Source of the DNA: Rickettsiales bacterium
GTDB lineage: Bacteria; Pseudomonadota; Alphaproteobacteria; Rickettsiales; JABSSG01
Length of the DNA stretch: 64,000 nt
Reading direction: 5' to 3'
NCBI GenBank assembly: GCA_040221415.1
Contig: JAVKEN010000005.1
Coordinates: 5,114 to 69,113, forward strand
Shown: positions 825 through 49,207 of the stretch, piece by piece
Position numbering within the stretch: position 1 is the first letter of the stretch
Layout: each line of letters opens with the position of its first letter
Notes under the pieces: generated by a model
The model's database searches: none
What the model was told of the DNA's origin: nothing
Seen by the model: only the letters and a program-made list of their open reading frames with translations
Program-made: the position numbers and the translations under genes

Positions 825-3567
<2,743 letters not shown>

Positions 3568-3651
3568 CATTATCGATTACTCATGTGTACAGCGTTAAGG
3601 CTGTATAAAAAGAAAATTATATACACAATAATACTTTAGGCCTGTTTAACT

Positions 3652-3768
3652 GGCCTGGTGGTTATAGCATTCGTGAAACACCTGATCCCATTCCGAACTC
3701 AGAAGTGAAACCGGATAGCGCTGATGGTACTACGTCTTAAGTCGTGGGAGAGTAAGTCGCCGCCAGGC
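3652..3768 (+). rRNA. rrf: 5S ribosomal RNA
   Basis: GGCCTGGTGG...CACCTGATCCCATTCCGAACTCAGAAGTGAAAC...GGGAGAGTAAGTCGCCGCCAGGC with terminal helix I. Ends approximate. Confidence 0.97.
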
Positions 3769-3807
3769 TTGTTAAGCAGGTTTTTTTATTGGCCTAAACC
3801 ATAATAA

Positions 3808-3836
3808 TTTGCAAAACTTTCTATCTTAAGTAGAAT
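3808..3836 (+). promoter_or_regulatory. putative sigma70 promoter of gltS
   Basis: TTTGCA/TTGCAA at 3808-3814 and TAGAAT at 3831-3836 (16-17 nt spacer). Confidence 0.4.
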
Positions 3837-3874
3837 GTTAGGAGCATAACTTTATATCTATACAAGCGATTTTT

Positions 3875-5098
3875 ATGGAAGCACACACTACTCTCAATAT
3901 CTCTGGTATTAACATGGTGGCAATTAGTATCCTTGTGTTTTTTATTGGGTATTTTTTTGTCCATAATGTTAAAATGTTGCGTCGATATAATATACCCGAA
4001 GGGATAGTTGGCGGGGTATTAGTAAGTCTATTTTTTTTCTTTATTAAAAAATCATATCATATCAAGGTTGTATTTGATACGGACCTCAGAGATTTATTTT
4101 TAATGATTTTCTTTTGTACTGTAGGTATGACTGCAAAGTTTAAATTGTTGATCTCTGGAGGAAGAACTTTAGCTAAATTGATTGTAGTTGTAATAGCATT
4201 CTTGATGTTACAGAATTTGACAGGAGTTGCTGTGGCACGACTGATAGGAGAATCAGATGTTGAGGGCTTAATTGCTGGCTCAATTACTTTGGCTGGAGGT
4301 CATGGTACCGCAATATCTTGGGGTACGTTTTTTGAAGAGCATGGTTTTAAAGGGGCAACAGAGTATGGGCTGATTTCTGCTACAATTGGCTTAGTATGTG
4401 GAGGAATTTTTGGCGCTCCAGTGGCAGAAAAATTAATTCATAAGCACAAACTGTTGAAATTTGATAATACAGGTCAAGAAATTATTCCTAATGAAGATAA
4501 AAAGCCTACGGCTAACATTGAAAGACTAGCTACAACTTTCATTATCGTCCTTATGTCTATATTTTTTGTTATCTTATGTATTATTTTAGGTGAAATCGCA
4601 CATAAATTTTTATTAACAAAAAATATAGTTACACCTGCCTATTTGCCAGTTTTGCTGATTGGGATTCTTTTTACTAACACAAGCGAATATGTGAAGATTA
4701 CTATTCCACCAAATCTGATAAATTTATTTAGAGATGTTAGCTTACAAGTGTTCATAACTATGAGTATGATGTGTGTAAATATTGAGTACTTATTTGATAA
4801 AAAAGTATTTTCTATTATAACTATTATAGCGGTTCAGATCGTTATGGTGGTGCTGTTTGCCAAACATGTATTCTTCAAAGCTGCAGGTAAGAATTATGAT
4901 GGAGCTGTAATTACAGGAGGATTTATTGGATCTGGACTGGGTGCTACGCCAGTGGCATTAGCAAACGTAGATGTCATTGGAAGAAAGTATCATCAGTCTG
5001 ATAAAGCTTTACTGATAGTTCCACTTTTAGGCTCCGTGTTCACTGATTTCTTTAGTGCAATTATTTTACAAGGGTTTCTGCATTATTTGATTTTATAA
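3875..5098 (+). CDS. gltS: Sodium/glutamate symporter (GltS family)
   Basis: About 400 aa polytopic membrane protein. LRRYNIPEGIVGG, ITLAGGHGT re-entrant motif and GSGLGATPVALAN match GltS. Confidence 0.88.
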   Translation: MEAHTTLNISGINMVAISILVFFIGYFFVHNVKMLRRYNIPEGIVGGVLVSLFFFFIKKSYHIKVVFDTDLRDLFLMIFFCTVGMTAKFKLLISGGRTLAKLIVVVIAFLMLQNLTGVAVARLIGESDVEGLIAGSITLAGGHGTAISWGTFFEEHGFKGATEYGLISATIGLVCGGIFGAPVAEKLIHKHKLLKFDNTGQEIIPNEDKKPTANIERLATTFIIVLMSIFFVILCIILGEIAHKFLLTKNIVTPAYLPVLLIGILFTNTSEYVKITIPPNLINLFRDVSLQVFITMSMMCVNIEYLFDKKVFSIITIIAVQIVMVVLFAKHVFFKAAGKNYDGAVITGGFIGSGLGATPVALANVDVIGRKYHQSDKALLIVPLLGSVFTDFFSAIILQGFLHYLIL

Positions 5099-39866: not shown

Positions 39867-41384
39867 ATGAGTTTTTTTAATAGTGCAAAGCAATTTTTAT
39901 GGCCTATAGAAAGGTGGGAATTGAAGAAATTCTTGCCAATGACCTTTATGATGTTTTGTATTTTATTTAACTATAATGCTCTGAGATCTATAAAAGATAG
40001 TTTGGTGGTGCCAAACATAGGAGCAGAAGCAATTAATTTCATAAAGTTTTATTGTGTTGTGCCGACTGCCATAATTTTTATGGTGGTTTACGCGAAGATG
40101 ACCAATGTGATGAGAGCACCAAAAATATTTTATATTTTATGTATGTTTTTTTTGGCCTTTTTTCTTCTTTTTGCATTTGTTTTTTATCCAAATCAAGAAT
40201 TCTTTCATCCTGATCAATCAAAAATTTCCTCTTTAGAGAACTCTAAAATAAATTTCATGCTATTTAGTATTGATGCAGCTCATTTTAAGTGGTTCTTAAG
40301 AATATATTCTAAATGGACGTATGCTTTGTTTTATATTATTGCTGAATTGTGGGGATCGGCGATGTTGATGCTTTCGTTCTGGCAGTTTGCAAATCACATT
40401 ACTAGCACTTCACAGGCAAAAAGATTTTACCCAATGTTTGGCTTCTTAGGTAATATAGCCCTTATCATTGCTGGTGGAGTCATAAAGTATCTAGCTGTTA
40501 TTCAGAAAAATATGTCTGGCATTAACGTGATTTCTGATTCTGGTATGATGATTAAAACCATGCTTACTTTTATGAGTTTGTCTATAATTGTTATTATGTG
40601 GCTGTACAATTACATGCAGGTTGAAGTTCTTACTGATTCAAAGTATTTCTCTAAACCTAGAAAGAAAACAAAGCCAAAACTATCAATTGTTGAGAGTTTC
40701 AAAGTTATTTTTTCATCTAAATATTTAGGATATATAGTTGTTCTTGTGTTTTGCTATGGCATGTCAATAAATCTTGTTGAGGGGCCGTGGAAAAGTAAGG
40801 TTAGAGAGCTTTATCCAAATACAAATGACTATGCTTATTTTATGGGAAGTCTAAATCAGTATACTGGTTTGGCTTCAATGATATTTATGATAATAGGAGC
40901 TAATTTCCTGAGAAGGTTTAGTTGGTCTAAGGGTGCAATAATAACTCCTTTAATTATCTTTTTTACTGGTTTAGGATTCTTCAGCTTTGTTGTGTTTGAT
41001 GAGTTGGTTTTTAGCTATGTGGCAATTTTCATGATGATAAATCCTGTTTTTATTGCGGTGTATATAGGCACTATACAGAATGTTCTTTCAAAAGGCATAA
41101 AATATGCATTCTTTGATCCAACAAAGGAGATGGCATATATTCCGATAGATGATGAGTTAAAGACTAAGGGTAAAGCAGCGGTTGATGTCGTAGGGGCCAG
41201 ATTAGCAAAATCTTTTGGGGCATTTATTCAAGCTTCAATATTTAGTGTATTTCCATCAGCAAACTACAATGAGATTACGCCATATTTAATGGTTGTTTTT
41301 GTAATTATTTGTTTTGTATGGTTGTTAGATGTAAATTTCTTAAACAGAGAATATAAAAAAAGTTTGAAGTTAGAGGGAAATTAG
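39867..41384 (+). CDS. tlc: Nucleotide translocase (Tlc/NTT), copy 3
   Basis: [62 protein letters not shown]. Confidence 0.95.
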   Translation: MSFFNSAKQFLWPIERWELKKFLPMTFMMFCILFNYNALRSIKDSLVVPNIGAEAINFIKFYCVVPTAIIFMVVYAKMTNVMRAPKIFYILCMFFLAFFLLFAFVFYPNQEFFHPDQSKISSLENSKINFMLFSIDAAHFKWFLRIYSKWTYALFYIIAELWGSAMLMLSFWQFANHITSTSQAKRFYPMFGFLGNIALIIAGGVIKYLAVIQKNMSGINVISDSGMMIKTMLTFMSLSIIVIMWLYNYMQVEVLTDSKYFSKPRKKTKPKLSIVESFKVIFSSKYLGYIVVLVFCYGMSINLVEGPWKSKVRELYPNTNDYAYFMGSLNQYTGLASMIFMIIGANFLRRFSWSKGAIITPLIIFFTGLGFFSFVVFDELVFSYVAIFMMINPVFIAVYIGTIQNVLSKGIKYAFFDPTKEMAYIPIDDELKTKGKAAVDVVGARLAKSFGAFIQASIFSVFPSANYNEITPYLMVVFVIICFVWLLDVNFLNREYKKSLKLEGN

Positions 41385-41385
41385 A

Positions 41386-42249
41386 ATGGAGTTATTAATT
41401 ACAAATTACAGTTTTATTTTAATTACATTCTCTGTCATTTTAAGGCTATTTAATAAATTCAAGAAGCTATCCATTATTTCATACGCTTGTGCCTTGGGTG
41501 TTGCTTTGGGGCAGAACTATATTGAACCCATTGGCTTTGCGTATATTCTGACTGCCGTTGCAGCAATCATTTTATTTTATAAAAAAAACAATCATCTATA
41601 CATTAAAGTTGCTGCATTTTTTTTCATAGCTATCTTTGGTTATAACCTTCTAGCACACCAGCTTCCAGGATTTAATAATATTCAGCTTTTGTATGAAAAA
41701 CTTTCTCCTGACTCAGAGTATTACAGTCTATGGCTAAATTATGACTCTACTTTTTTTGCTAGCTTTATTTTTATTAAGGCATACAAGCCGATAGGTTTAA
41801 AAAAGCATTTCAAAGTAATTTTTCAAGGAGTAGCTTATGGTGCAGTAATTTCGCTGATATTGAGTTTTATATGCTTACATTATGGCATCATAAGGCTTGA
41901 TACCACAGTCCCCGACATCATTTGGTTGTGGTTATGGATTGTATCTTTATATGCAATATTTTCCGAAAGTTTTTACAGGATGTTTTTTATTGATTTTATA
42001 AGAGAAATTTGTCCAGGATCATTATCCTGGCTATTTGTCACAATAATAACTTCCTCTTTCTTATTTGCATATAGTCACTCTTGGGCTGGATCGTTGTACG
42101 TCTATGCTTCCTTTTTAGCTGGTGTGGTGTATTGTGTTTCTTATATTAAATCTGGATATAGAGTGGAGTCTTCGTCAGTAACTCATATAATGGTAAATGT
42201 TTTACATTTTATATTTTTTACATACCCGTTTTATATTCAAACCAGTTAA
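41386..42249 (+). CDS. CPBP/Abi family intramembrane (CAAX-type) protease homolog
   Basis: Multi-TM protein with SESFYR (EExxxR-like), FAYSH and HIMVN motifs. Confidence 0.75.
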   Translation: MELLITNYSFILITFSVILRLFNKFKKLSIISYACALGVALGQNYIEPIGFAYILTAVAAIILFYKKNNHLYIKVAAFFFIAIFGYNLLAHQLPGFNNIQLLYEKLSPDSEYYSLWLNYDSTFFASFIFIKAYKPIGLKKHFKVIFQGVAYGAVISLILSFICLHYGIIRLDTTVPDIIWLWLWIVSLYAIFSESFYRMFFIDFIREICPGSLSWLFVTIITSSFLFAYSHSWAGSLYVYASFLAGVVYCVSYIKSGYRVESSSVTHIMVNVLHFIFFTYPFYIQTS

Positions 42250-42265
42250 GTAATTTGAATTTACA

Positions 42266-43471
42266 ATGTCCATTATTGTACAAAAATTTGGTGGCACATC
42301 TGTTGGTAACATTGAAAGAATAAATAATGTTGCTGACATAATTATTACTGAAAAAAACAAAGGTAATCAGGTCATTGTAGTTGTATCAGCCATGGCAACA
42401 GTGACTAATAGCCTTGCCTCTCTGGTAAAGGAGAATTTCAAAGTTGAATCACAAAATGGCTTGGCAGAGATTGACTCTATTTTATCTTCAGGCGAGCAAG
42501 TTTCATCTGCACTTCTAGCTCTTGCTCTTCAAGAAAAAGGATATTCAGCACGATCATATCTTGGTTGGCAAATACCCATAGAGACTGATTCAAAATATGG
42601 TTGTGCAAGAATAAAAAGCATCAATACAAAAATATTTGATGAAAAAGAGATACCTATAGTTTCTGGTTTTCAGGGAATAAATAGCGACGGGAGAATAACA
42701 ACGTTGGGAAGAGGTGGATCTGACACAACAGCAGCTGCAATTGCCGCTGCTATAAAAGCAGATAGATGTGATATATACACTGATGTGGAGGGTATTTTTA
42801 CATGTGACCCGAGGATTGTAAAAAATGCTAAAAAACTAGATCGAATATCTTATGAAGAAACCTTAGAAATTGCTTCGCTGGGCGCAAAAGTCTTGCAGAT
42901 AAGGTCGGTAGAGATAGCAATGAATTATAATATTCCTTTAAAAGTATTATCTAGTTTTAATAAGGATAGTGGAACAATGTTAACTACAGAGGACAAACAA
43001 ATGGAGAAAAGAATAATTACTGCGGTGACTTATACTAGGAATGAAGCCAGAATTAATATAAGTGGTGTTCCAGTGACAAAAGGTGCGGTCAGCATTTTTG
43101 ATCATTTGGAGGATATCAATATTGATACTATAGTGCAGAATATGCACTCAGACGGAGAGAGCTTGAATGTAACTTTCACAGTTCCTGGAGATGAGCTTTC
43201 AAAAACGGTTGAAAGATTAAAAAAGAATAAAAATAAAATTTTATATAAAAGTCTAGTAAGTGAAGAAAACCTAGCTAAGGTTTCTGTTGTTGGTGTCGGA
43301 ATGAAGAGCCAAGCTGGCGTAGCAAGGGACATGTTTAAAGCTTTATTTGAGAAATCAATTGATATTAAGGTGATATCTACATCGGAAATTAAAATTAGTG
43401 TTATTATTCCAGAGGAATATTTGGAATTAGCAGTCAGAACTTTACACTCAAAATTTGAATTAGAGAAATAA
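42266..43471 (+). CDS. lysC: Aspartate kinase
   Basis: VQKFGGTSV, VVVSAM, TLGRGGSDTT, YTDVEG, two ACT domains, STSEIKIS. Confidence 0.97.
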   Translation: MSIIVQKFGGTSVGNIERINNVADIIITEKNKGNQVIVVVSAMATVTNSLASLVKENFKVESQNGLAEIDSILSSGEQVSSALLALALQEKGYSARSYLGWQIPIETDSKYGCARIKSINTKIFDEKEIPIVSGFQGINSDGRITTLGRGGSDTTAAAIAAAIKADRCDIYTDVEGIFTCDPRIVKNAKKLDRISYEETLEIASLGAKVLQIRSVEIAMNYNIPLKVLSSFNKDSGTMLTTEDKQMEKRIITAVTYTRNEARINISGVPVTKGAVSIFDHLEDINIDTIVQNMHSDGESLNVTFTVPGDELSKTVERLKKNKNKILYKSLVSEENLAKVSVVGVGMKSQAGVARDMFKALFEKSIDIKVISTSEIKISVIIPEEYLELAVRTLHSKFELEK

Positions 43472-43472
43472 A

Positions 43473-44468
43473 ATGAAATTAGAAAAGCTATGGAAGAAAG
43501 GAACAGATTTTTTAGGTAGTAAATATGCTATTTTAGGGGGAGCTATGTCATGGGTCTCTGAGCATAACTTAGTTTCTGCAATTTCTAACGCTGGAGGTTT
43601 TGGTGTTATCGCGTGCGGATCGATGAATCCCGATATGCTAGAAAGTGAAATTAAGAAAACTCAATCCAAAACTAAGAAGCCCTTCGGCGTTAATCTTATA
43701 ACTATGCACCCTCAATTAAGTGATTTAATTGAGGTTACGATTAAGTTGGGTGTTACGCATGTGGTTCTAGCAGGGGGGCTTCCTAAGGCTGAACATATAA
43801 AGAAGTTGAAAGATCATAATATTAAGGTTGTTTGCTTTGCTCCTGCTGCAGTAATTGCAAAAAGACTTATTCGCAATGGAGTTGATGCCATTGTGATTGA
43901 GGGGATGGAGGCTGGTGGTCACATCGGCCCTGTGTCAACTTCTGTCCTAGCACAAGAAATTTTGCCTGAATTTAGGAATATACCTGTATTTATAGCTGGA
44001 GGTATTGGAAGAGGAGAAGCGATTACTCAGTATTTAAGACAAGGAGCTGCTGGTTGTCAGTTAGGAACGCGTTTTGTATGCGCAGAAGAATGTATCGCGC
44101 ATGAAAACTTTAAAAATTTATTTATAAAGTCTAACGCAAGAGATGCAACTGTTTCAGTGCAGGTGGATCCTAATTTTCCTGTGATCCCGGTGCGTGCAAT
44201 TGAAAATGATGCGTCAAAAAGATTCATGGAATATCAGATAGAGACAATTAAAAGATATCAGTCTGGAGTGGTATCAAAAGAAGAAGCTCAGTTAGAGATA
44301 GAACATTTCTGGGCTGGAGCATTGAGGAAGGCTGTTATTGATGGAGATGTTACTAACGGTTCTGTGATGGCGGGTCAGAGTGTTGGACTGGTCAAAAAAA
44401 TACAACCAGTACAAGACATTATTGAAGAATTGGTATCTCAAGCTAGAGCTTCATTAAACGATGAATAG
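43473..44468 (+). CDS. Nitronate monooxygenase / FabK-like FMN oxidoreductase
   Basis: GGAMSW, PFGVNL, EGMEAGGHIG, AGGIG, QLGTRF, MAGQSVG. Confidence 0.88.
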   Translation: MKLEKLWKKGTDFLGSKYAILGGAMSWVSEHNLVSAISNAGGFGVIACGSMNPDMLESEIKKTQSKTKKPFGVNLITMHPQLSDLIEVTIKLGVTHVVLAGGLPKAEHIKKLKDHNIKVVCFAPAAVIAKRLIRNGVDAIVIEGMEAGGHIGPVSTSVLAQEILPEFRNIPVFIAGGIGRGEAITQYLRQGAAGCQLGTRFVCAEECIAHENFKNLFIKSNARDATVSVQVDPNFPVIPVRAIENDASKRFMEYQIETIKRYQSGVVSKEEAQLEIEHFWAGALRKAVIDGDVTNGSVMAGQSVGLVKKIQPVQDIIEELVSQARASLNDE

Positions 44469-45435
44469 AATCTTAAGTCTCTTATTGATTCTTGTTGTAT
44501 CGAGTTGTGAAACTAGTCTGAATCAGAAAGCTGTTGTTTCGTACAAGAATAATGTAATAGTTGGTCAGAAAAATGTAGGAAATATTGAGTCAAAGGTAGC
44601 GACTATTACTCAAAAAAAATATGATGGGCATACAATATTTTCTCTTGATTTATTAAATGTAGATAGTAAAAGGAATAAGTATCTATATAAAGTCCCATAC
44701 GTTTCTCGTTCTCAGTATTTTTTAAGAACTCTGTTAAACTCTCCTTCAACTAAAAATTACTACAAAAACTCATATATAAAAAACATCACCAAGCAATCAT
44801 CTGATAAAAAGAGGATGATTAAAAGTTTAGGTGTACATACATCAAAAAAAATTCGTGAACTGCAGATTTTTACTAGAAGAATACATAAAAGAATGAATCT
44901 TCACAGAATCAGACACTCAAATCCAATGAGACAAACAATTGCAAAAATGGATCAATATCTAACTAAAGCTAGAGCAGGATTAAATAAACTTTCTTTAGAT
45001 CAAAAACTTTTAATATTAAGAAAAACACTTACTATTTTAGAAAATATCCCTGCAGCAGTTCCACTTGAGAATTTTCGAGTATCATCTAGATTCAAGGTTC
45101 GATGGCATCCTATACAAAGAAAACGGGTTATGCATAAAGGAATAGATTTGGTCGGTAAGAAGAGAGCCCCGGTTCTTGCGACTGCGAACGGTGTAGTTTC
45201 GTTTGCAGGAAGGCAATCTGGTTATGGAAAAACAATTATTATTGAACATAGCAATACCTCCTCAACCTTGTACGCTCATTTGAATACCATATTAGTATCT
45301 AAAGGGGAGAGGGTAAGACTAGGTGAAAAAATTGCTATACAGGGTAATACAGGAAGTAGTACAAACGACCATTTGCATTATGAAACCAGGTTAAAAAATC
45401 AGCAAGTGAATCCAGAAATATTCACTGCTTTTTAA
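44461..45435 (+). CDS. M23 family metallopeptidase, predicted lipoprotein
   Basis: Lipobox-like VVSSC. HKGIDL, ATANGVV, YGKTIIIEH, YAHL, GNTGSSTNDHLHYE. Confidence 0.9.
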   Translation: MNRILSLLLILVVSSCETSLNQKAVVSYKNNVIVGQKNVGNIESKVATITQKKYDGHTIFSLDLLNVDSKRNKYLYKVPYVSRSQYFLRTLLNSPSTKNYYKNSYIKNITKQSSDKKRMIKSLGVHTSKKIRELQIFTRRIHKRMNLHRIRHSNPMRQTIAKMDQYLTKARAGLNKLSLDQKLLILRKTLTILENIPAAVPLENFRVSSRFKVRWHPIQRKRVMHKGIDLVGKKRAPVLATANGVVSFAGRQSGYGKTIIIEHSNTSSTLYAHLNTILVSKGERVRLGEKIAIQGNTGSSTNDHLHYETRLKNQQVNPEIFTAF

Positions 45436-46262
45436 ATGCTAGCTATATCACTCTCTAAATGATGAAATAGGTTTTTAGTAAAAGTGAACTGGTTTCCTTT
45501 CCATTCATTTTTTATTTCTGATATTGGCAAAATAATATGGTTTGCATTTGTCATAAATATTTCGTCTGCAGTTAGTAAATTATTAATGGGGAAAACTCCT
45601 TGATTTACTCTAATTCCATCTGATTTAAGGATTTGATTTCTAATTACACCTCTTATCAGGGGGCATTTATTTGATGGAGTATAAAGAACTTTGTTCTTAA
45701 CCCAAAAAATATTCCCTGAGCTAAATTCACAGATATATTTTTTATTATCAAGTTGTATACCATCAAAGCAATTATTCTCTTCTGCCTCTATTTTAGCTAG
45801 AACCGAATTTAGGTTAGCAAGTGTTTTGACTTGAGTTGGAATAGATTCTGGATTAGGCTTAGGTATAGATGAAATGATCACCTGTACAGGCTCTTTCCAA
45901 AGAATATTTTTTTCATTAGTTTCAATTATGATATTTGCTGGGCTATTTTTCATTCGTGAATATCCCACACTTTTTTCGCCTGCAGTAACAATGATTTTTA
46001 ATAAACCATTATTCACATGGTTCTTTTGTATGAGTGCACAAGCGTGATCTTTTATATTGTGAAGTGTAACGTTTCTAATTTTTAGGATATCCAAGCCTTT
46101 TTTTAATCTTGCAATATGAAAATTCCACTGGTAAATCTTTCCATTGGAAATTCTAATGGTTTCAAAAAGGCCGTCACCAAATCTCAGACCTCGGTCATGT
46201 GTAGAGATAAGTCTTTTTTGATCCTCAAAATATTTTCCGTTTAAATATATATATTTTGACAT
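45432..46262 (-). CDS. pabC: Class IV aminotransferase family, likely aminodeoxychorismate lyase
   Basis: YLNGK, DRGLRFGDGLFET, VKTLAN, EFSSGNIFW, GVIR, EIFMTNA. Start set at 46262 because homology begins at MSKYIYLNG. An IlvE/Dat assignment cannot be excluded. Confidence 0.75.
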   Translation of the reverse strand: MSKYIYLNGKYFEDQKRLISTHDRGLRFGDGLFETIRISNGKIYQWNFHIARLKKGLDILKIRNVTLHNIKDHACALIQKNHVNNGLLKIIVTAGEKSVGYSRMKNSPANIIIETNEKNILWKEPVQVIISSIPKPNPESIPTQVKTLANLNSVLAKIEAEENNCFDGIQLDNKKYICEFSSGNIFWVKNKVLYTPSNKCPLIRGVIRNQILKSDGIRVNQGVFPINNLLTADEIFMTNANHIILPISEIKNEWKGNQFTFTKNLFHHLESDIASI

Positions 46263-46635
46263 GAAGAAAAATATAGCGATAAAGCTAGAAAGATTGCAAG
46301 TTAAAACTTTTATAGGCGTCACAGAGGAGGAGAGAAAGTCGCCCCAAACACTTGAGTGTAATTTAGAAATCAAGAGTGAAAATTCATTACAGTGCCTTGA
46401 TAAGGATGGAAAGGAAGATTATATTTGCTATGCTCTTATTTCCGAAAAAATTTGCCAGTTTTGTTTAGGAAACGAATTTATGCTAATAGAATATTTAACA
46501 AATCAGGTTTTTAAAATGTTAAGGGAGTCAATTCCTAAGAGTTTTGGTATAAAAGTTGAATTTAAAAAACATAACCCTGATATGAAATCTAATCTTCACG
46601 CAGCCTCATGCGTAGTAAGCGATTATGCAGAATAA
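46261..46635 (+). CDS. folB: Dihydroneopterin aldolase
   Basis: LQVKTFIGVTEEE...DYICY...LIEYL. First gene of the folKPC cluster. Confidence 0.85.
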   Translation: MKKNIAIKLERLQVKTFIGVTEEERKSPQTLECNLEIKSENSLQCLDKDGKEDYICYALISEKICQFCLGNEFMLIEYLTNQVFKMLRESIPKSFGIKVEFKKHNPDMKSNLHAASCVVSDYAE

Positions 46636-47131
46636 TTTTGTTATAGTTTCTTTTGGTTCAAATTTGGGTGAGCGGGAAAAAAATATTCACAAAGCAGTTA
46701 GCGCCATTCAAAGTAGTGATATAATGAAGGATACAGTTCTATCTGAAATTATAGAGACAGATGCTATATTATTAGAAGGAAGCCCTAAATCTTGGAATAA
46801 AAAATTTCTAAATGCGGTAATGTGTGGGTCTACGAGGCTTTCTCCCCAAATGTTGTTATCTAGATTAAAAGATGTGGAAAGCTACTTAGGCAGGAGTTCA
46901 TCCGAGAAATGGTCACCAAGACTGATAGATATTGATATTTTATTCTATAATAATCTGTATATAAATGAAGATGAGATTCAAATACCGCATCCTGAATTTC
47001 TGAATAGAAAATTCTTAGTAGAATTAGTTTCCAAGATTACTCCAGATTACACTTTCCCAGTACGCGGCAGATTTTATAAAGAGAAAATGGCTGCTATTAA
47101 TAAACATCTAACAGTTCATGAAGAAGTTTGA
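46625..47131 (+). CDS. folK: HPPK (2-amino-4-hydroxy-6-hydroxymethyldihydropteridine diphosphokinase)
   Basis: SFGSNLG, FLNAV, KWSPRLIDIDIL, IPHP. Confidence 0.94.
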   Translation: MQNNFVIVSFGSNLGEREKNIHKAVSAIQSSDIMKDTVLSEIIETDAILLEGSPKSWNKKFLNAVMCGSTRLSPQMLLSRLKDVESYLGRSSSEKWSPRLIDIDILFYNNLYINEDEIQIPHPEFLNRKFLVELVSKITPDYTFPVRGRFYKEKMAAINKHLTVHEEV

Positions 47132-47924
47132 AACTAAAATAGTTGGCGCACTAAATCTTACTCCAGACTCCTTTTCAGATGGGGGTAGATATAACTCTCA
47201 TTCTCAAGCTTTAGCCCATATTTCAGACATGATATCTAATGGAGTAGACGTAATAGATGTTGGAGCTGAGTCAACTCGTCCTGATGGAGTAAGAATTACA
47301 GTCGAAGAAGAGAAGAAGCGTCTAGATGGTTTGATCCAGATGATATACAAAATTGCGAAAGAAAATAATGTCAAAGTGAGTTTAGATTCACACAACATTG
47401 AAACTTTGACACATTATCAAAATTACTATGATATAATTAATGATGTGACCGGGTTGTCAAGTGATGAGATAATTTCTTTACAGAAAGACACTGGAAAAGA
47501 GGCTGTATTTATGAGAAGTCTTACGGTTCCAGTCATTAAAACAAAAGTTATTGATCCTACATTAGACCCAATTATATATATTCAAGATTGGCTGAATAAA
47601 AAGATTGATTTTTTTACTAGAAAGGAGATTGATTTAAATAAATTAATTTTTGATCCAGGCATAGGATTTGGTCTAGGTCAGAAAAACGATATGCTATTAA
47701 TCAAAAAGATATCTGATTTAAACACTCAAGGTTTGCAATTAATGGTGGGACATTCGAGGAAGTCTTTCCTTCAGGTGTTTGGTTCTAGCAATCCCAGAGA
47801 GAGAGATCCTGAAACGCATGTATTAAGTTCATATTTAATAAATTTAGGAGTAGATTATATTCGTGTGCATGATGTAGAATCTACTGCTAGAGTAAAAGCT
47901 TTAACCAAAGAATTATATAGTTAG
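47118..47924 (+). CDS. folP: Dihydropteroate synthase
   Basis: LNLTPDSFSDGG, IDVGAESTRP, INDV, FDPGIGFG, GHSRKSF, RVHDV. Confidence 0.96.
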   Translation: MKKFETKIVGALNLTPDSFSDGGRYNSHSQALAHISDMISNGVDVIDVGAESTRPDGVRITVEEEKKRLDGLIQMIYKIAKENNVKVSLDSHNIETLTHYQNYYDIINDVTGLSSDEIISLQKDTGKEAVFMRSLTVPVIKTKVIDPTLDPIIYIQDWLNKKIDFFTRKEIDLNKLIFDPGIGFGLGQKNDMLLIKKISDLNTQGLQLMVGHSRKSFLQVFGSSNPRERDPETHVLSSYLINLGVDYIRVHDVESTARVKALTKELYS

Positions 47925-47926
47925 TC

Positions 47927-49207
47927 ATGGTATGGATGCCTCATTGGCCGAGAGTAGGTGAAAAATCTTCCATAAAGCTTGGATTGAATAATATCAAATC
48001 ATTACTAGAGGCGCTTGATAACCCTCAAGATAAAATGCCGCCTGTAATACATGTTGCTGGCACAAATGGTAAAGGCTCTACAGTATCATTTCTGCAGTCT
48101 ATTCTTGAGGCTTCTGGACTAAGAGTGCACGTTAACACTTCACCTCACATCTATAGATTTAACGAGAGAATTAAGATTGGCGGCGAAGAAATATCAGATA
48201 GATATCTGAAAGAAATTCTTGAAGAATGTAGGATAGTCTCAGAGAAAAATAATATTAACACTTCATTCTTTGAGGGAATTACAGCAGCAGCTTTTTTGGC
48301 GTTTTCTAGAAACAAAGCAGACATTACTTTGGTTGAAGTCGGAATGGGTGGAAGGTTAGATGCTACTAATGTGCTTACAAAACCTTTAATGACAGTAATC
48401 ACTCCAATATCCCTTGATCATGTGGAGTCTTTAGGAGATACGGTTGAGAAAATTGCATACGAGAAAGCTTGCATCATGAAGAGTGGAATTCCTTCTGTAA
48501 TTAGCGCCCAATTAGATGGGGCTCATAAAGTTATTGAAGAGTATGCTAGCAAAAACAAAGTCCCTCTTTTTAGGTATGAATATGATTTCGGTATAGAGCC
48601 AAATATCAATGGTGGCTTTCAATATATGTCTGATGATTGCAAAATAGATTTGCCAGAGCCATCTTTGAAAGGGTTGCATCAATATGTCAATGCAGCGACT
48701 GCAATAGCAGCTGTAAAGCTTATAAAAGGGGGGGGTATTACAGATGCATCAATTTCAGAAGGTATTGAAAATGCTAAATGGCCTGGAAGAATAGAGAAAA
48801 TTAATTCTGGTAAATTATTTGATATCCTTCCTGATGGTTCTGAAGTTTACCTAGATGGTGCGCATAATCAATCTGGCGCTCAGGTTCTTGCTACTTGGCT
48901 AAGCATGCAGCCTGAAATGAGAACTTTTATGGTGGTTGGGTTTACTAAGAATCGCAATGCTAATGATTTTCTAAAATATTTCCAAATCATGAATCCTAAT
49001 GTTATTTGTTCAACAGTTCATTCAGAGCCTTTAAGTTATAAAGGACATGAGTTGCAGGAAATGATTGACTGCAAATTCCCAGATATCTCTTCAGTTAATA
49101 AAATAGAAGAGGCTTTAAGAAGAATTGTTTCCGAAAATACAAAGCCTGTTCGGGTTATAGTCAGTGGGTCTTTATTTTTAGTGTCTGATTTTTTAAGAGC
49201 TAATTAA
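47927..49207 (+). CDS. folC: Dihydrofolate synthase / folylpolyglutamate synthase
   Basis: HVAGTNGKGS, TSPH, EVGMGGRLDATN, WPGR, LDGAHN, SGSLFLV. Confidence 0.96.
   Translation: MVWMPHWPRVGEKSSIKLGLNNIKSLLEALDNPQDKMPPVIHVAGTNGKGSTVSFLQSILEASGLRVHVNTSPHIYRFNERIKIGGEEISDRYLKEILEECRIVSEKNNINTSFFEGITAAAFLAFSRNKADITLVEVGMGGRLDATNVLTKPLMTVITPISLDHVESLGDTVEKIAYEKACIMKSGIPSVISAQLDGAHKVIEEYASKNKVPLFRYEYDFGIEPNINGGFQYMSDDCKIDLPEPSLKGLHQYVNAATAIAAVKLIKGGGITDASISEGIENAKWPGRIEKINSGKLFDILPDGSEVYLDGAHNQSGAQVLATWLSMQPEMRTFMVVGFTKNRNANDFLKYFQIMNPNVICSTVHSEPLSYKGHELQEMIDCKFPDISSVNKIEEALRRIVSENTKPVRVIVSGSLFLVSDFLRAN

What the first reader, a model, noticed from the sequence alone, without database searches (positions are those of the whole stretch)
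45432..46263. pabC-like gene inserted antisense with zero spacing at both ends: shared CATG start overlap and TTAA stop overlap
Seen: the minus-strand ATG of pabC (CAT at 46260-46262) interlocks with the plus-strand ATG of folB (46261-46263) in one CATG palindrome. At the other end the M23 stop and pabC stop share TTAA (45432-45435). Both starts fit homology (MSKYIYLNG; MKKNIAIKLERLQVKTFIG) and neither has a Shine-Dalgarno. There is no intergenic DNA, so each gene's promoter and ribosome-binding region must lie in the other's coding sequence, or folBKPC is transcribed from upstream straight across pabC. Established: non-contiguous operons/excludons create long antisense overlaps processed by RNase III. 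Inference: two branches of folate synthesis (pABA versus pterin) may be mutually regulated by antisense or transcriptional collision.
Basis: partly seen in the sequence, partly recalled or inferred. Interest (0 to 1): 0.65.

Follow-up and report, generated by a model that had tools for sequence, protein, structure and literature searches.

The report
pabC and folB share CATG start
In a small-genome Rickettsiales-like bacterium, two folate-pathway genes on opposite strands really do begin on the same four bases, a layout kept in four related genomes, so their expression signals must lie inside each other's coding sequence; this is tidy genome compaction of a known kind, not a new system.

Summary
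The minus-strand class IV aminotransferase (pabC, 45432-46262) and plus-strand folB (46261-46635) interlock their ATGs in CATG (46260-46263). pabC and the M23 peptidase gene share TTAA at their stops (45432-45435). Both starts fit homologue N-termini.

The CATG overlap recurs in all four genomes with M23-pabC-folBKPC synteny (pabC 46-53% identical). It was not inserted: divergent pabC|folB adjacency occurs across the order with spacers of about 40-175 bp, so the spacer shrank to -2.

- The 4-nt stop overlap is the commonest convergent layout (34 of 202 pairs).
- Only 17-26% of genes have a Shine-Dalgarno core.
- Divergent overlaps are rare (9 of 193 pairs).

pabC identity is supported: aroC, pabB and pabC occur only in the same two of 11 family genomes.

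A sigma-70-like TTGCAA-N18-TATATT sits 7 nt before the pabC ATG, inside folB codons 4-13. TATATT sits 5 nt before the folB ATG. Both -10 positions are kept in all four genomes and absent in relatives with spacers. I infer leaderless or near-leaderless mRNAs from two overlapping, mutually exclusive promoters.

The parts
44461..45435 (+). M23-family peptidase gene (324 aa), convergent with pabC
   Evidence: PF01551 at 108 bits. It is the last gene of a tightly packed plus-strand run, lysC-NMO(fabK-like)-M23.
45432..45435 (.). TTAA: the shared 4-nt overlap of the M23 stop (TAA, plus strand) and the pabC stop (TAA, minus strand)
   Evidence: Conserved as TTAA, CTAA, TTAA in G006, L047, L048. The -4 overlap is the commonest convergent class in the genome, 34 of 202 pairs.
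45432..46262 (-). pabC-like class IV aminotransferase (276 aa), a probable aminodeoxychorismate lyase
   Evidence: PF01063 at 166 bits. TIGR03461 pabC_Proteo scores 161.7, just under its cut-off of 176.85. Orthologues sit upstream of pabB-like genes. Its phyletic pattern matches pabB and aroC.
46260..46263 (.). CATG: the interlocked start codons of pabC (minus) and folB (plus)
   Evidence: Conserved in G006, L047, L048.
46261..46635 (+). folB (dihydroneopterin aldolase, 124 aa), first gene of folB-folK-folP-folC
   Evidence: PF02152 at 60.6 bits and TIGR00526 at 58.5 bits, both above cut-off.
46625..49207 (+). folK (46625-47131), folP (47118-47924) and folC (47927-49207). folB/folK and folK/folP overlap; folC starts 2 nt after folP.
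   Evidence: PF01288, PF00809, Mur_ligase_M/C. TIGR01498, TIGR01496 and TIGR01499 are all above cut-off.
46270..46299 (-). Candidate pabC promoter inside folB codons 4-13. The -35 is TTGCAA (46299-46294), then an 18-nt spacer, then the -10 TATATT (46275-46270), then 7 nt, then the pabC ATG.
   Evidence: Found by the consensus scan at 9 of 12 matches. The same site is found in L047. A -10-like hexamer sits at exactly 7 nt in 4 of 4 clade genomes and 0 of 9 outgroups. The null for a 9/12 promoter ending 5-8 nt from such an ATG is 0.86%.
46250..46255 (+). Candidate folB -10 hexamer TATATT, 5 nt before the folB ATG, inside pabC codons 3-5. It has no good -35.
   Evidence: A hexamer matching at least 5 of 6 sits 5-8 nt upstream in 4 of 4 clade genomes and 0 of 14 other folB upstream regions. 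The null is 5.2%.
46250..46275 (.). Perfect 8-nt inverted repeat TATATTTT (46250-46257) / AAAATATA (46268-46275) bracketing the CATG. It consists of the two -10-like elements.
45649..45663 (+). Weak terminator-like hairpin on the plus strand inside the pabC antisense, 215 nt past the M23 stop. Of doubtful significance.
   Evidence: 2 overlapping hits against 1.4 +/- 1.3 in shuffles. A non-homologous hairpin sits 125 nt past the M23 stop in L047; there is none in G006.

Best explanation
Origin. This is an ancestral divergent gene pair: pabC (pABA branch) against folB-folK-folP-folC (pterin branch and condensation). In one clade of a small-genome Rickettsiales-like family, its shared control region has been squeezed out completely. 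The two ATGs now interlock in CATG, and the 3' end of pabC is flush with the neighbouring M23 gene.

Where the signals lie. The expression signals were not lost. They now lie inside the first ~13 codons of the partner gene.
- pabC is driven by a sigma-70-type promoter, TTGCAA-N18-TATATT, written in folB codons 4-13. Its predicted start site, 7-8 nt after the -10, is the A of the pabC ATG.
- folB has a -10 hexamer, TATATT, in pabC codons 3-5, 5 nt before its ATG.

Inferred mechanism.
- Both mRNAs would be leaderless or carry only 1-3 nt of leader. They would be translated without a Shine-Dalgarno, which most genes of this genome also lack.
- The two promoters occupy the same ~60 bp, so only one RNA polymerase can sit there at a time. 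The two folate branches would then compete for initiation rather than being regulated by long antisense RNA.
- folB has a poor -35 and probably also receives read-through transcription from lysC-fabK-M23.

Status of each step.
- Shown: the overlaps, the starts, their conservation, the ancestry of the adjacency, the pabC assignment, and the position and conservation of the promoter-like hexamers.
- Inferred: that these hexamers are the promoters in use, leaderless initiation, and promoter competition.
For: - Overlaps and starts.
- The CATG is kept in four genomes with pabC only 46-53% identical, one of them in another genus of the family.
- The adjacency is ancestral. Relatives across the order have divergent pabC(-pabB)|folB(K,P) with spacers of about 40-175 bp. 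One (G013) has an independent 10-nt start overlap.
- pabC promoter: the scan finds TTGCAA-N18-TATATT ending 7 nt before the ATG in the window and in L047. A TANNNT hexamer sits at exactly 7 nt in 4 of 4 clade genomes and 0 of 9 outgroups. folB codons 4-5 encode NI, NI, II and SL, yet all read ANNNTA.
- folB -10: a match of at least 5 of 6 sits 5-8 nt upstream in 4 of 4 clade genomes and 0 of 14 other folB upstream regions.
- Genome nulls for the antisense of CDS 5' ends: TATAWT at 5-8 nt 1.0%, a hexamer matching at least 5 of 6 5.2%, a full 9/12 promoter 0.86%.
- All eight start codons are ATG, and CATG gives C(-1)A(+1) on both strands. The preference for pyrimidine-purine at start sites is from my own knowledge of E. 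coli promoters.
- A Shine-Dalgarno core is present upstream of only 17-26% of genes, although the 16S rRNA carries CCTCCTTT.
Against:
- The genome as a whole shows no leaderless signature. Strict -10 hexamers peak 22-37 nt upstream of ATGs, and there is no excess at 5-8 nt.
- Same-family folB genes with free upstream DNA have their best -10 about 20 nt upstream, not next to the ATG.
- Promoter-like sites in this AT-rich DNA are no more frequent than in shuffled sequence (12 against 12.8).
- Part of the hexamer conservation could come from protein constraints: a conserved Tyr TAT codon in pabC and a hydrophobic residue in folB beta-strand 1. The four genomes are also not independent.
- folB lacks a convincing -35, and 5 nt is at the short end for the distance from -10 to start site.
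- In G006 the folB hexamer is 8 nt away because of a one-codon insertion, so strict leaderless geometry is not kept there.
- The other CATG pair in this genome (C24) has no such hexamers.
Confidence: 0.5

Rival explanations
1. Non-contiguous operon. folBKPC has no promoter of its own and is transcribed from the upstream plus-strand run (lysC-fabK-M23) straight across the antisense of pabC. pabC is made from a promoter inside folB. The ~830-nt overlap then gives mutual repression through collision and double-stranded RNA processing.
For: - pabC is the only minus-strand gene interrupting the tightly packed plus-strand run from 39867 to 49207 (the stretch listed).
- The M23/pabC junction has no spacer for a terminator, and convergent genes here have a median gap of 0.5 nt.
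- In genus g6 of the same family, M23 and pabC are absent and folB follows the fabK-like gene directly, with a 10-nt gap or a 4-nt overlap. There folB is certainly co-transcribed with it.
- folB lacks a good -35.
Against: - Nothing shows the transcript. Such operons cannot be predicted from sequence (PMC11034616).
- 830 nt of untranslated RNA is a natural Rho target (my knowledge).
- Weak terminator-like hairpins lie 215 nt (window) and 125 nt (L047) past the M23 stop on that strand.
- A conserved -10 hexamer right before the folB ATG in all four genomes would be unexplained.
- This reading is not exclusive of the main explanation.
Confidence: 0.3
2. Ordinary leadered transcripts. Both genes use promoters deeper inside the partner's coding sequence, giving the 15-30-nt 5' UTRs typical of this genome. 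The two mRNAs would overlap head-to-head by about 30-70 nt (a short 5' excludon). The hexamers next to the ATGs would be by-products of AT-rich codons.
For: - The genome-wide position of -10 hexamers is 22-37 nt upstream of ATGs, and there is no leaderless peak.
- Looser TANNNT hexamers exist 24 nt before the folB ATG and 19 and 35 nt before the pabC ATG.
- Promoter-like sites occur at the chance rate.
Against: - None of those deeper hexamers has a -35 partner or reaches 9 of 12.
- They are not conserved in position across the four genomes, whereas the hexamers next to the ATGs are.
Confidence: 0.17
3. Annotation artefact. One of the two true starts lies elsewhere and there is no real overlap.
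For: - Gene callers in relatives chose other starts: TTG giving a 111-aa folB in L047, GTG giving a 271-aa pabC in L048, and TTG giving a 278-aa pabC in G006.
- Divergent overlaps are often suspected mis-annotations in the literature (PMC2478687, title and abstract only).
Against: - The alternative starts would remove half of folB beta-strand 1 or the first four residues of a conserved pabC N-terminus.
- Profile alignments begin at residue 1-2 for pabC and residue 7 for folB.
- N-terminal lengths match orthologues with free upstream DNA.
- No other start exists for folB upstream of 46261.
- The same ATG pair is available in all four genomes.
Confidence: 0.03

Closest known systems
Short divergent (head-to-head) overlapping gene pairs of prokaryotes (Lillo & Krakauer 2007, PMC2174442)
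   Same: Two protein-coding genes on opposite strands overlap at their 5' ends by fewer than 5 nt. That survey found 331 divergent overlaps against 12737 co-directional ones in 58 genomes, 57 of them shorter than 5 nt. It attributes the rarity to the need to encode regulatory elements upstream.
   Different: Here both starts are checked against homologues and the overlap is conserved across genera. The pair joins two branches of one pathway. Candidate promoter elements can be placed in the partner's codons.
Non-contiguous operons and excludons (S. aureus menE-menC/ytkD; Listeria excludons; PMC11034616, PMC7154746, PMC12288877)
   Same: One gene on the opposite strand interrupts a co-directional run of genes. 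There is potential for overlapping transcripts and mutual repression.
   Different: These classes are defined by observed transcripts, and none is available here. In the known cases the antagonistic gene is usually functionally opposed. Here pabC and folBKPC are needed together to make dihydropteroate.
Leaderless mRNAs with a -10 box 6-8 nt before the AUG (Mycobacterium, Deinococcus; PMC3898074, PMC4633059, PMC4007540; lambda cI from PRM, my knowledge)
   Same: A -10 hexamer sits 5-7 nt upstream of an ATG, there is no Shine-Dalgarno, and the start codon is ATG.
   Different: Those organisms show the signature genome-wide. This genome does not. Here two such promoters would face each other with start sites 1 nt apart.
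Overlapping or competing promoter pairs such as E. coli bioA/bioBFCD and convergent phage promoters (my knowledge; not tested here)
   Same: Two promoters share one short stretch of DNA, so polymerase binding at one excludes the other. The bio case also concerns a cofactor pathway.
   Different: Those lie in intergenic DNA with a repressor operator. Here the promoters are in coding sequence and no regulator site is known. The 8-nt inverted repeat is simply the two -10-like elements.

Membership tests
Aminodeoxychorismate lyase (PabC) | Class IV (fold type IV) PLP-enzyme domain | tested here: met
   PF01063 at 166.2 bits against a cut-off of 28.5, covering residues 31-250.
Aminodeoxychorismate lyase (PabC) | Score above the curated equivalog cut-off of a PabC model | tested here: not met
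   TIGR03461 pabC_Proteo scores 161.7 against 176.85, PRK07650 155.9 against 308, and PRK06092 149.3 against 260. The top hit is a BCAT subfamily model, also below its cut-off. Sequence alone does not separate PabC from BCAT or D-amino-acid transaminase.
Aminodeoxychorismate lyase (PabC) | Genomic and phyletic linkage to pabB, chorismate supply and folP | tested here: met
   Orthologues lie directly upstream of chorismate-binding (PF00425) genes in several families of the order. Within the family, pabC-like, PF00425 and chorismate synthase occur only in G000 and G006, while folP and folE occur in all 11 genomes. A second class IV paralogue, present in most family members, covers the housekeeping role.
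Aminodeoxychorismate lyase (PabC) | Converts 4-amino-4-deoxychorismate to pABA and pyruvate | not testable with these tools
   Needs an enzyme assay, or complementation of an E. coli pabC mutant.
Dihydroneopterin aldolase (FolB) | FolB domain above curated cut-offs | tested here: met
   PF02152 at 60.6 bits against 31.8, and TIGR00526 folB_dom at 58.5 against 45.05. The equivalog TIGR00525 scores 47.7, below its cut-off of 72.15. The gene is followed by folK, folP and folC.
Divergent (head-to-head) overlapping gene pair | Both start codons are real and their coding sequences overlap at the 5' ends | tested here: met
   Starts are supported by profile registers and orthologue N-termini. The 2-nt start-codon overlap is conserved in four genomes.
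Non-contiguous operon | A single transcript spans the genes on both sides of the oppositely oriented gene | not testable with these tools
The literature states that these operons cannot be predicted computationally.
Excludon | A long antisense transcript from one divergent unit overlaps and represses the other | not testable with these tools
   No transcript data.
Leaderless mRNA | Transcription start at, or within a few nt of, the A of the start codon | not testable with these tools
   Sequence proxies only: -10-like hexamers 7 nt (pabC) and 5 nt (folB) before ATG.
Leaderless mRNA | The organism shows a genome-wide -10 peak next to start codons and a lack of Shine-Dalgarno | tested here: not met
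   -10 hexamers peak 22-37 nt upstream and show no excess at 5-8 nt. Shine-Dalgarno use is low but real, at 17-26% against 4-11% background.

The most novel reading that the evidence does not exclude
The CATG junction is a two-way switch with no intergenic DNA. Two leaderless promoters face each other with start sites one base apart, each written in the other gene's first codons. A polymerase bound for the pABA branch (pabC) excludes initiation of the pterin branch (folBKPC), and the reverse. This fixes or tunes the ratio of the two substrates of dihydropteroate synthase. The arrangement would be kept by selection across genera rather than being a passive result of deletion bias.
Probability: 0.15. 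Interest if true: 0.6.

Novelty: new member of a known kind. Interest (0 to 1): 0.3.

Why it matters
- It is a clean, homology-verified and evolutionarily conserved example of a head-to-head start-codon overlap. Such overlaps are rare and often dismissed as mis-annotation.
- It shows that promoter and initiation signals for two biosynthetic genes can be fully written inside coding sequence.
- Practically, automatic gene callers mis-set one of the two starts in three of the four genomes. Annotation pipelines that forbid divergent overlaps will truncate or extend such genes.
- If the leaderless, competing-promoter reading were confirmed, it would give a minimal model for coupling two branches of a cofactor pathway without a regulator. 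It would also be a first documented leaderless pair in a Rickettsiales-like symbiont.
- If not confirmed, it remains an ordinary by-product of genome reduction.

Tried and rejected
No transcript test was possible and read laying was not attempted.
- The search for related loci in genome contigs with the single protein returned only two distant class IV paralogues, from Ignavibacteriaceae and Hymenobacter, which were of no use. The genome search, and the search for homologous proteins with the look-up of encoding contigs, gave the informative relatives.
- 'Leaderless expression is general in this genome' was rejected. There is no -10 peak next to ATGs.
- 'folB is ancestrally leaderless in the family' was rejected. 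Family members with free upstream DNA have their best -10 about 20 nt upstream.
- Other near-zero-gap divergent pairs of the genome were checked for the same hexamer geometry. No consistent pattern appeared.
- 'pabC was inserted' was rejected on synteny across the order.
- A shared operator or structured RNA was sought. The only inverted repeat is the pair of -10-like elements, and no Rfam family matches near the locus.
- A terminator after M23 inside the pabC antisense was sought. There are weak, non-homologous hairpins in two of four genomes, at about the chance rate in the window. This is inconclusive.
- A literature search for leaderless mRNAs or start-site maps in Rickettsiales found no paper in the library.
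Full report
**What is there**

Window 45432-46263 holds a minus-strand ORF of 276 aa (45432-46262). Its ATG is the complement of 46260-46262. A plus-strand ORF of 124 aa starts at 46261, so the four bases CATG (46260-46263) carry both start codons. At the other end, the stop of a plus-strand M23 peptidase gene (44461-45435) and the stop of the minus-strand ORF share TTAA at 45432-45435.

Pfam assigns the genes as follows:
- Minus-strand ORF: class IV aminotransferase (PF01063, 166 bits).
- Plus-strand ORF: FolB (PF02152, 60.6 bits).
- Next three plus-strand genes: FolK, FolP and FolC.

The window is C5:5114-69113 of a 1.39-Mb, 26-contig, 35.5% GC genome. Named homologues of the minus-strand protein come from Rickettsiales and Alphaproteobacteria MAGs.

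**Are the starts right?**

For folB:
- 46261 is the first ATG/GTG/TTG after an in-frame stop at 46219-46221.
- The only later candidate, TTG at 46294, would remove half of the first beta-strand. The Pfam model begins at residue 7.
- Orthologues in the same family with 300-400 bp of free upstream DNA have the same N-terminal length: 17 residues before the (I/L)G(V/I) motif.

For the aminotransferase:
- NCBIfam profiles align residue 1-2 to model position 1-2.
- The conserved block YLNG...DRGLRFGDG leaves no other in-frame start.
- The register to the DR motif is identical in relatives.

Both starts therefore stand.

**Is the gene pabC?**

Sequence alone is ambiguous. pabC_Proteo scores 161.7 bits against a cut-off of 176.85, and branched-chain and D-amino-acid transaminase models score similarly. 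Context settles it:
- In several families of the order, the orthologue lies immediately upstream of a 415-452-aa chorismate-binding (pabB-like) gene on the same strand.
- Among the 11 genomes of the family, the pabC-like gene, the chorismate-binding enzyme and chorismate synthase occur in exactly the same two genomes, G000 and G006. folP and GTP cyclohydrolase I occur in all 11.
- A second class IV paralogue (C22) is present in most family members and presumably does the housekeeping job.

**Conservation and origin**

The divergent pabC|folB(K,P) adjacency is widespread in the order. It occurs with spacers of roughly 40-175 bp (G033, G022, G021, and metagenome contigs L050 and L051). One independent case, G013, has a 10-nt start overlap, ATGTATGCAT. 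pabC was therefore not inserted; the spacer was lost.

The exact CATG overlap occurs in every genome I found with M23-pabC-folBKPC synteny:
- G000, the window's genome.
- G006, another genus of the family, with pabC 47% identical.
- ENA contig L047, 53% identical.
- Logan contigs L048 and L049, 46% identical.

In these genomes the gene callers obscured the overlap:
- A 111-aa folB from TTG in L047.
- A 271-aa pabC from GTG in L048.
- A 278-aa pabC from TTG in G006.

The reading frames and N-terminal alignments show the same ATG pair in each. The stop overlap with M23 is also kept, as TTAA, CTAA, TTAA. In genus g6 of the family, M23 and pabC are absent and folB follows the fabK-like NMO gene directly.

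**How unusual is it in this genome?**

I made crude gene calls: 1358 genes covering 92.6% of the genome. The results were:

| Feature | Result |
|---|---|
| Convergent pairs, median gap | 0.5 nt |
| Convergent pairs with a 4-nt overlap | 34 of 202 (the modal class) |
| Divergent pairs, median gap | 102 nt |
| Divergent pairs with gap of 0 or less | 9 of 193 |
| Genes with a Shine-Dalgarno core upstream | 17-26% (background 4-11%) |

- The flush 3' end is therefore ordinary.
- Some of the nine divergent overlaps probably reflect start-choice errors.
- One other CATG pair exists at C24:80456.
- The 16S rRNA has the canonical CCTCCTTT tail, so the lack of a Shine-Dalgarno at pabC and folB is the norm.
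- In the literature, divergent overlaps are the rarest class: 331 against 12737 co-directional overlaps in 58 genomes. The rarity is explained by the need for upstream regulatory elements (PMC2174442).
- Earlier notes of this scan list further CATG pairs in other compact genomes. These are unverified leads.

**Where can the signals be?**

On the minus strand, the consensus scan finds TTGCAA-N18-TATATT at 46299-46270, matching 9 of 12 positions. It ends 7 nt before the pabC ATG. The same site is found by the scan in L047. All four clade genomes carry a TANNNT hexamer at exactly 7 nt: TATATT, TATATT, TATAAT and TAAACT. None of nine outgroup pabC upstream regions has one at 5-8 nt. The underlying folB codons 4-5 encode NI, NI, II and SL, yet all read ANNNTA.

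On the plus strand, TATATT (46250-46255) lies 5 nt before the folB ATG. The relatives have TATAGT at 5 nt, CATAAT at 5 nt and CATAAT at 8 nt. None of 14 other folB upstream regions has a match of at least 5 of 6 at 5-8 nt. The two elements form a perfect 8-nt inverted repeat around the CATG.

Nulls taken from the antisense of all CDS 5' ends in this genome are:
- 1.0% for TATAWT at 5-8 nt.
- 5.2% for a hexamer matching at least 5 of 6.
- 0.86% for a full 9/12 promoter.

Caveats:
- The hypothesis was formed on these same sequences.
- The four genomes share ancestry.
- Part of the pattern may be protein constraint, from a conserved Tyr TAT codon in pabC and a hydrophobic residue in folB.
- Promoter-like sites in this AT-rich DNA occur at the shuffled rate overall.
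- folB has no good -35.
- The genome shows no general leaderless signature. Its -10 hexamers peak 22-37 nt upstream of ATGs.

**Most likely mechanism**

The ancestral bidirectional control region was compacted into the first codons of both genes.

pabC is transcribed from the embedded TTGCAA-N18-TATATT promoter. folB is transcribed from the TATATT hexamer, probably helped by read-through from lysC-fabK-M23.

In both cases the predicted start site falls on or next to the A of the ATG. This would give leaderless or near-leaderless mRNAs. CATG also provides a pyrimidine-purine step at the start site on both strands (my knowledge of E. coli start-site preference).

The two promoters occupy the same DNA, so initiation would be mutually exclusive. 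I put 0.5 on this package. The compaction and embedded-signal core is near certain, and the leaderless part is about 0.4.

The rivals are:
- A non-contiguous operon (0.3, not exclusive of the main explanation).
- Ordinary leadered transcripts from deeper promoters (0.17).
- A start-site artefact (0.03).

Non-contiguous operons cannot be predicted from sequence (PMC11034616).

**Verdict**

- This is a new, well-documented member of a known kind: a short head-to-head gene overlap in a reduced genome.
- It comes with a testable but unproven leaderless, competing-promoter reading.
- Interest is modest.

Noticed in passing
G000:C24:79822-81526 (outside the window): A second divergent pair in the same genome shares a CATG start overlap. 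One gene is a 211-aa protein with an OmpR-type Trans_reg_C domain and the other a 356-aa GTP cyclohydrolase II (ribA-like). No -10-like hexamer lies next to either ATG.
   Followed up: partly
G000:C1:6494-8347 (outside the window): A zero-gap divergent pair reads CAT|ATG. One gene is a 411-aa membrane protein and the other a 205-aa TsaB/TsaD-family protein. The starts were not checked against homologues.
   Followed up: no
L019 / L044 (G013:C29), locus L019 1501-1510: An independent lineage of the order (GC 0.30) has pabC and folB starts overlapping by 10 nt, ATGTATGCAT. Each ORF has only one possible start.
   Followed up: partly
L036 (G008) 2611-4003 and L038 (G005) 2475-3862: In genus g6 of the family, M23 and pabC are missing. 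folB follows the fabK-like NMO gene with a 10-nt gap or a 4-nt overlap, so folBKPC there has become part of the upstream operon.
   Followed up: partly
whole genome G000: Convergent gene pairs have a median spacer of 0.5 nt, and 34 of 202 overlap by exactly 4 nt. Most convergent genes therefore have no room for an intrinsic terminator (crude gene calls).
   Followed up: partly
window 825-3768; G000:C10: The 23S and 5S rRNA genes lie in the window without a 16S gene. The 16S 3' end, with anti-SD CCTCCTTT, is on contig C10. This is consistent with the split rRNA operon known from Rickettsiales (the Rickettsiales trait is from my own knowledge).
   Followed up: no
L045 (G000:C1:~3590-4680): The only chorismate-binding (pabB-like) gene of this genome has an open frame of about 363-371 aa. 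Order relatives have 415-452 aa with an Anth_synt_I_N region. The N-terminal domain may be shortened, and the gene is unlinked from pabC here.
   Followed up: no
window 49193-49207: The argR-like repressor gene (minus strand) and folC overlap convergently by 15 nt.
   Followed up: no
L047 1588-1923, L048 3001-3816, G006 protein P0003: Public gene calls avoid the divergent overlap by truncating folB (111 aa from TTG), truncating pabC (271 aa from GTG) or extending pabC (278 aa from TTG). This is a systematic annotation error for this locus.
   Followed up: yes
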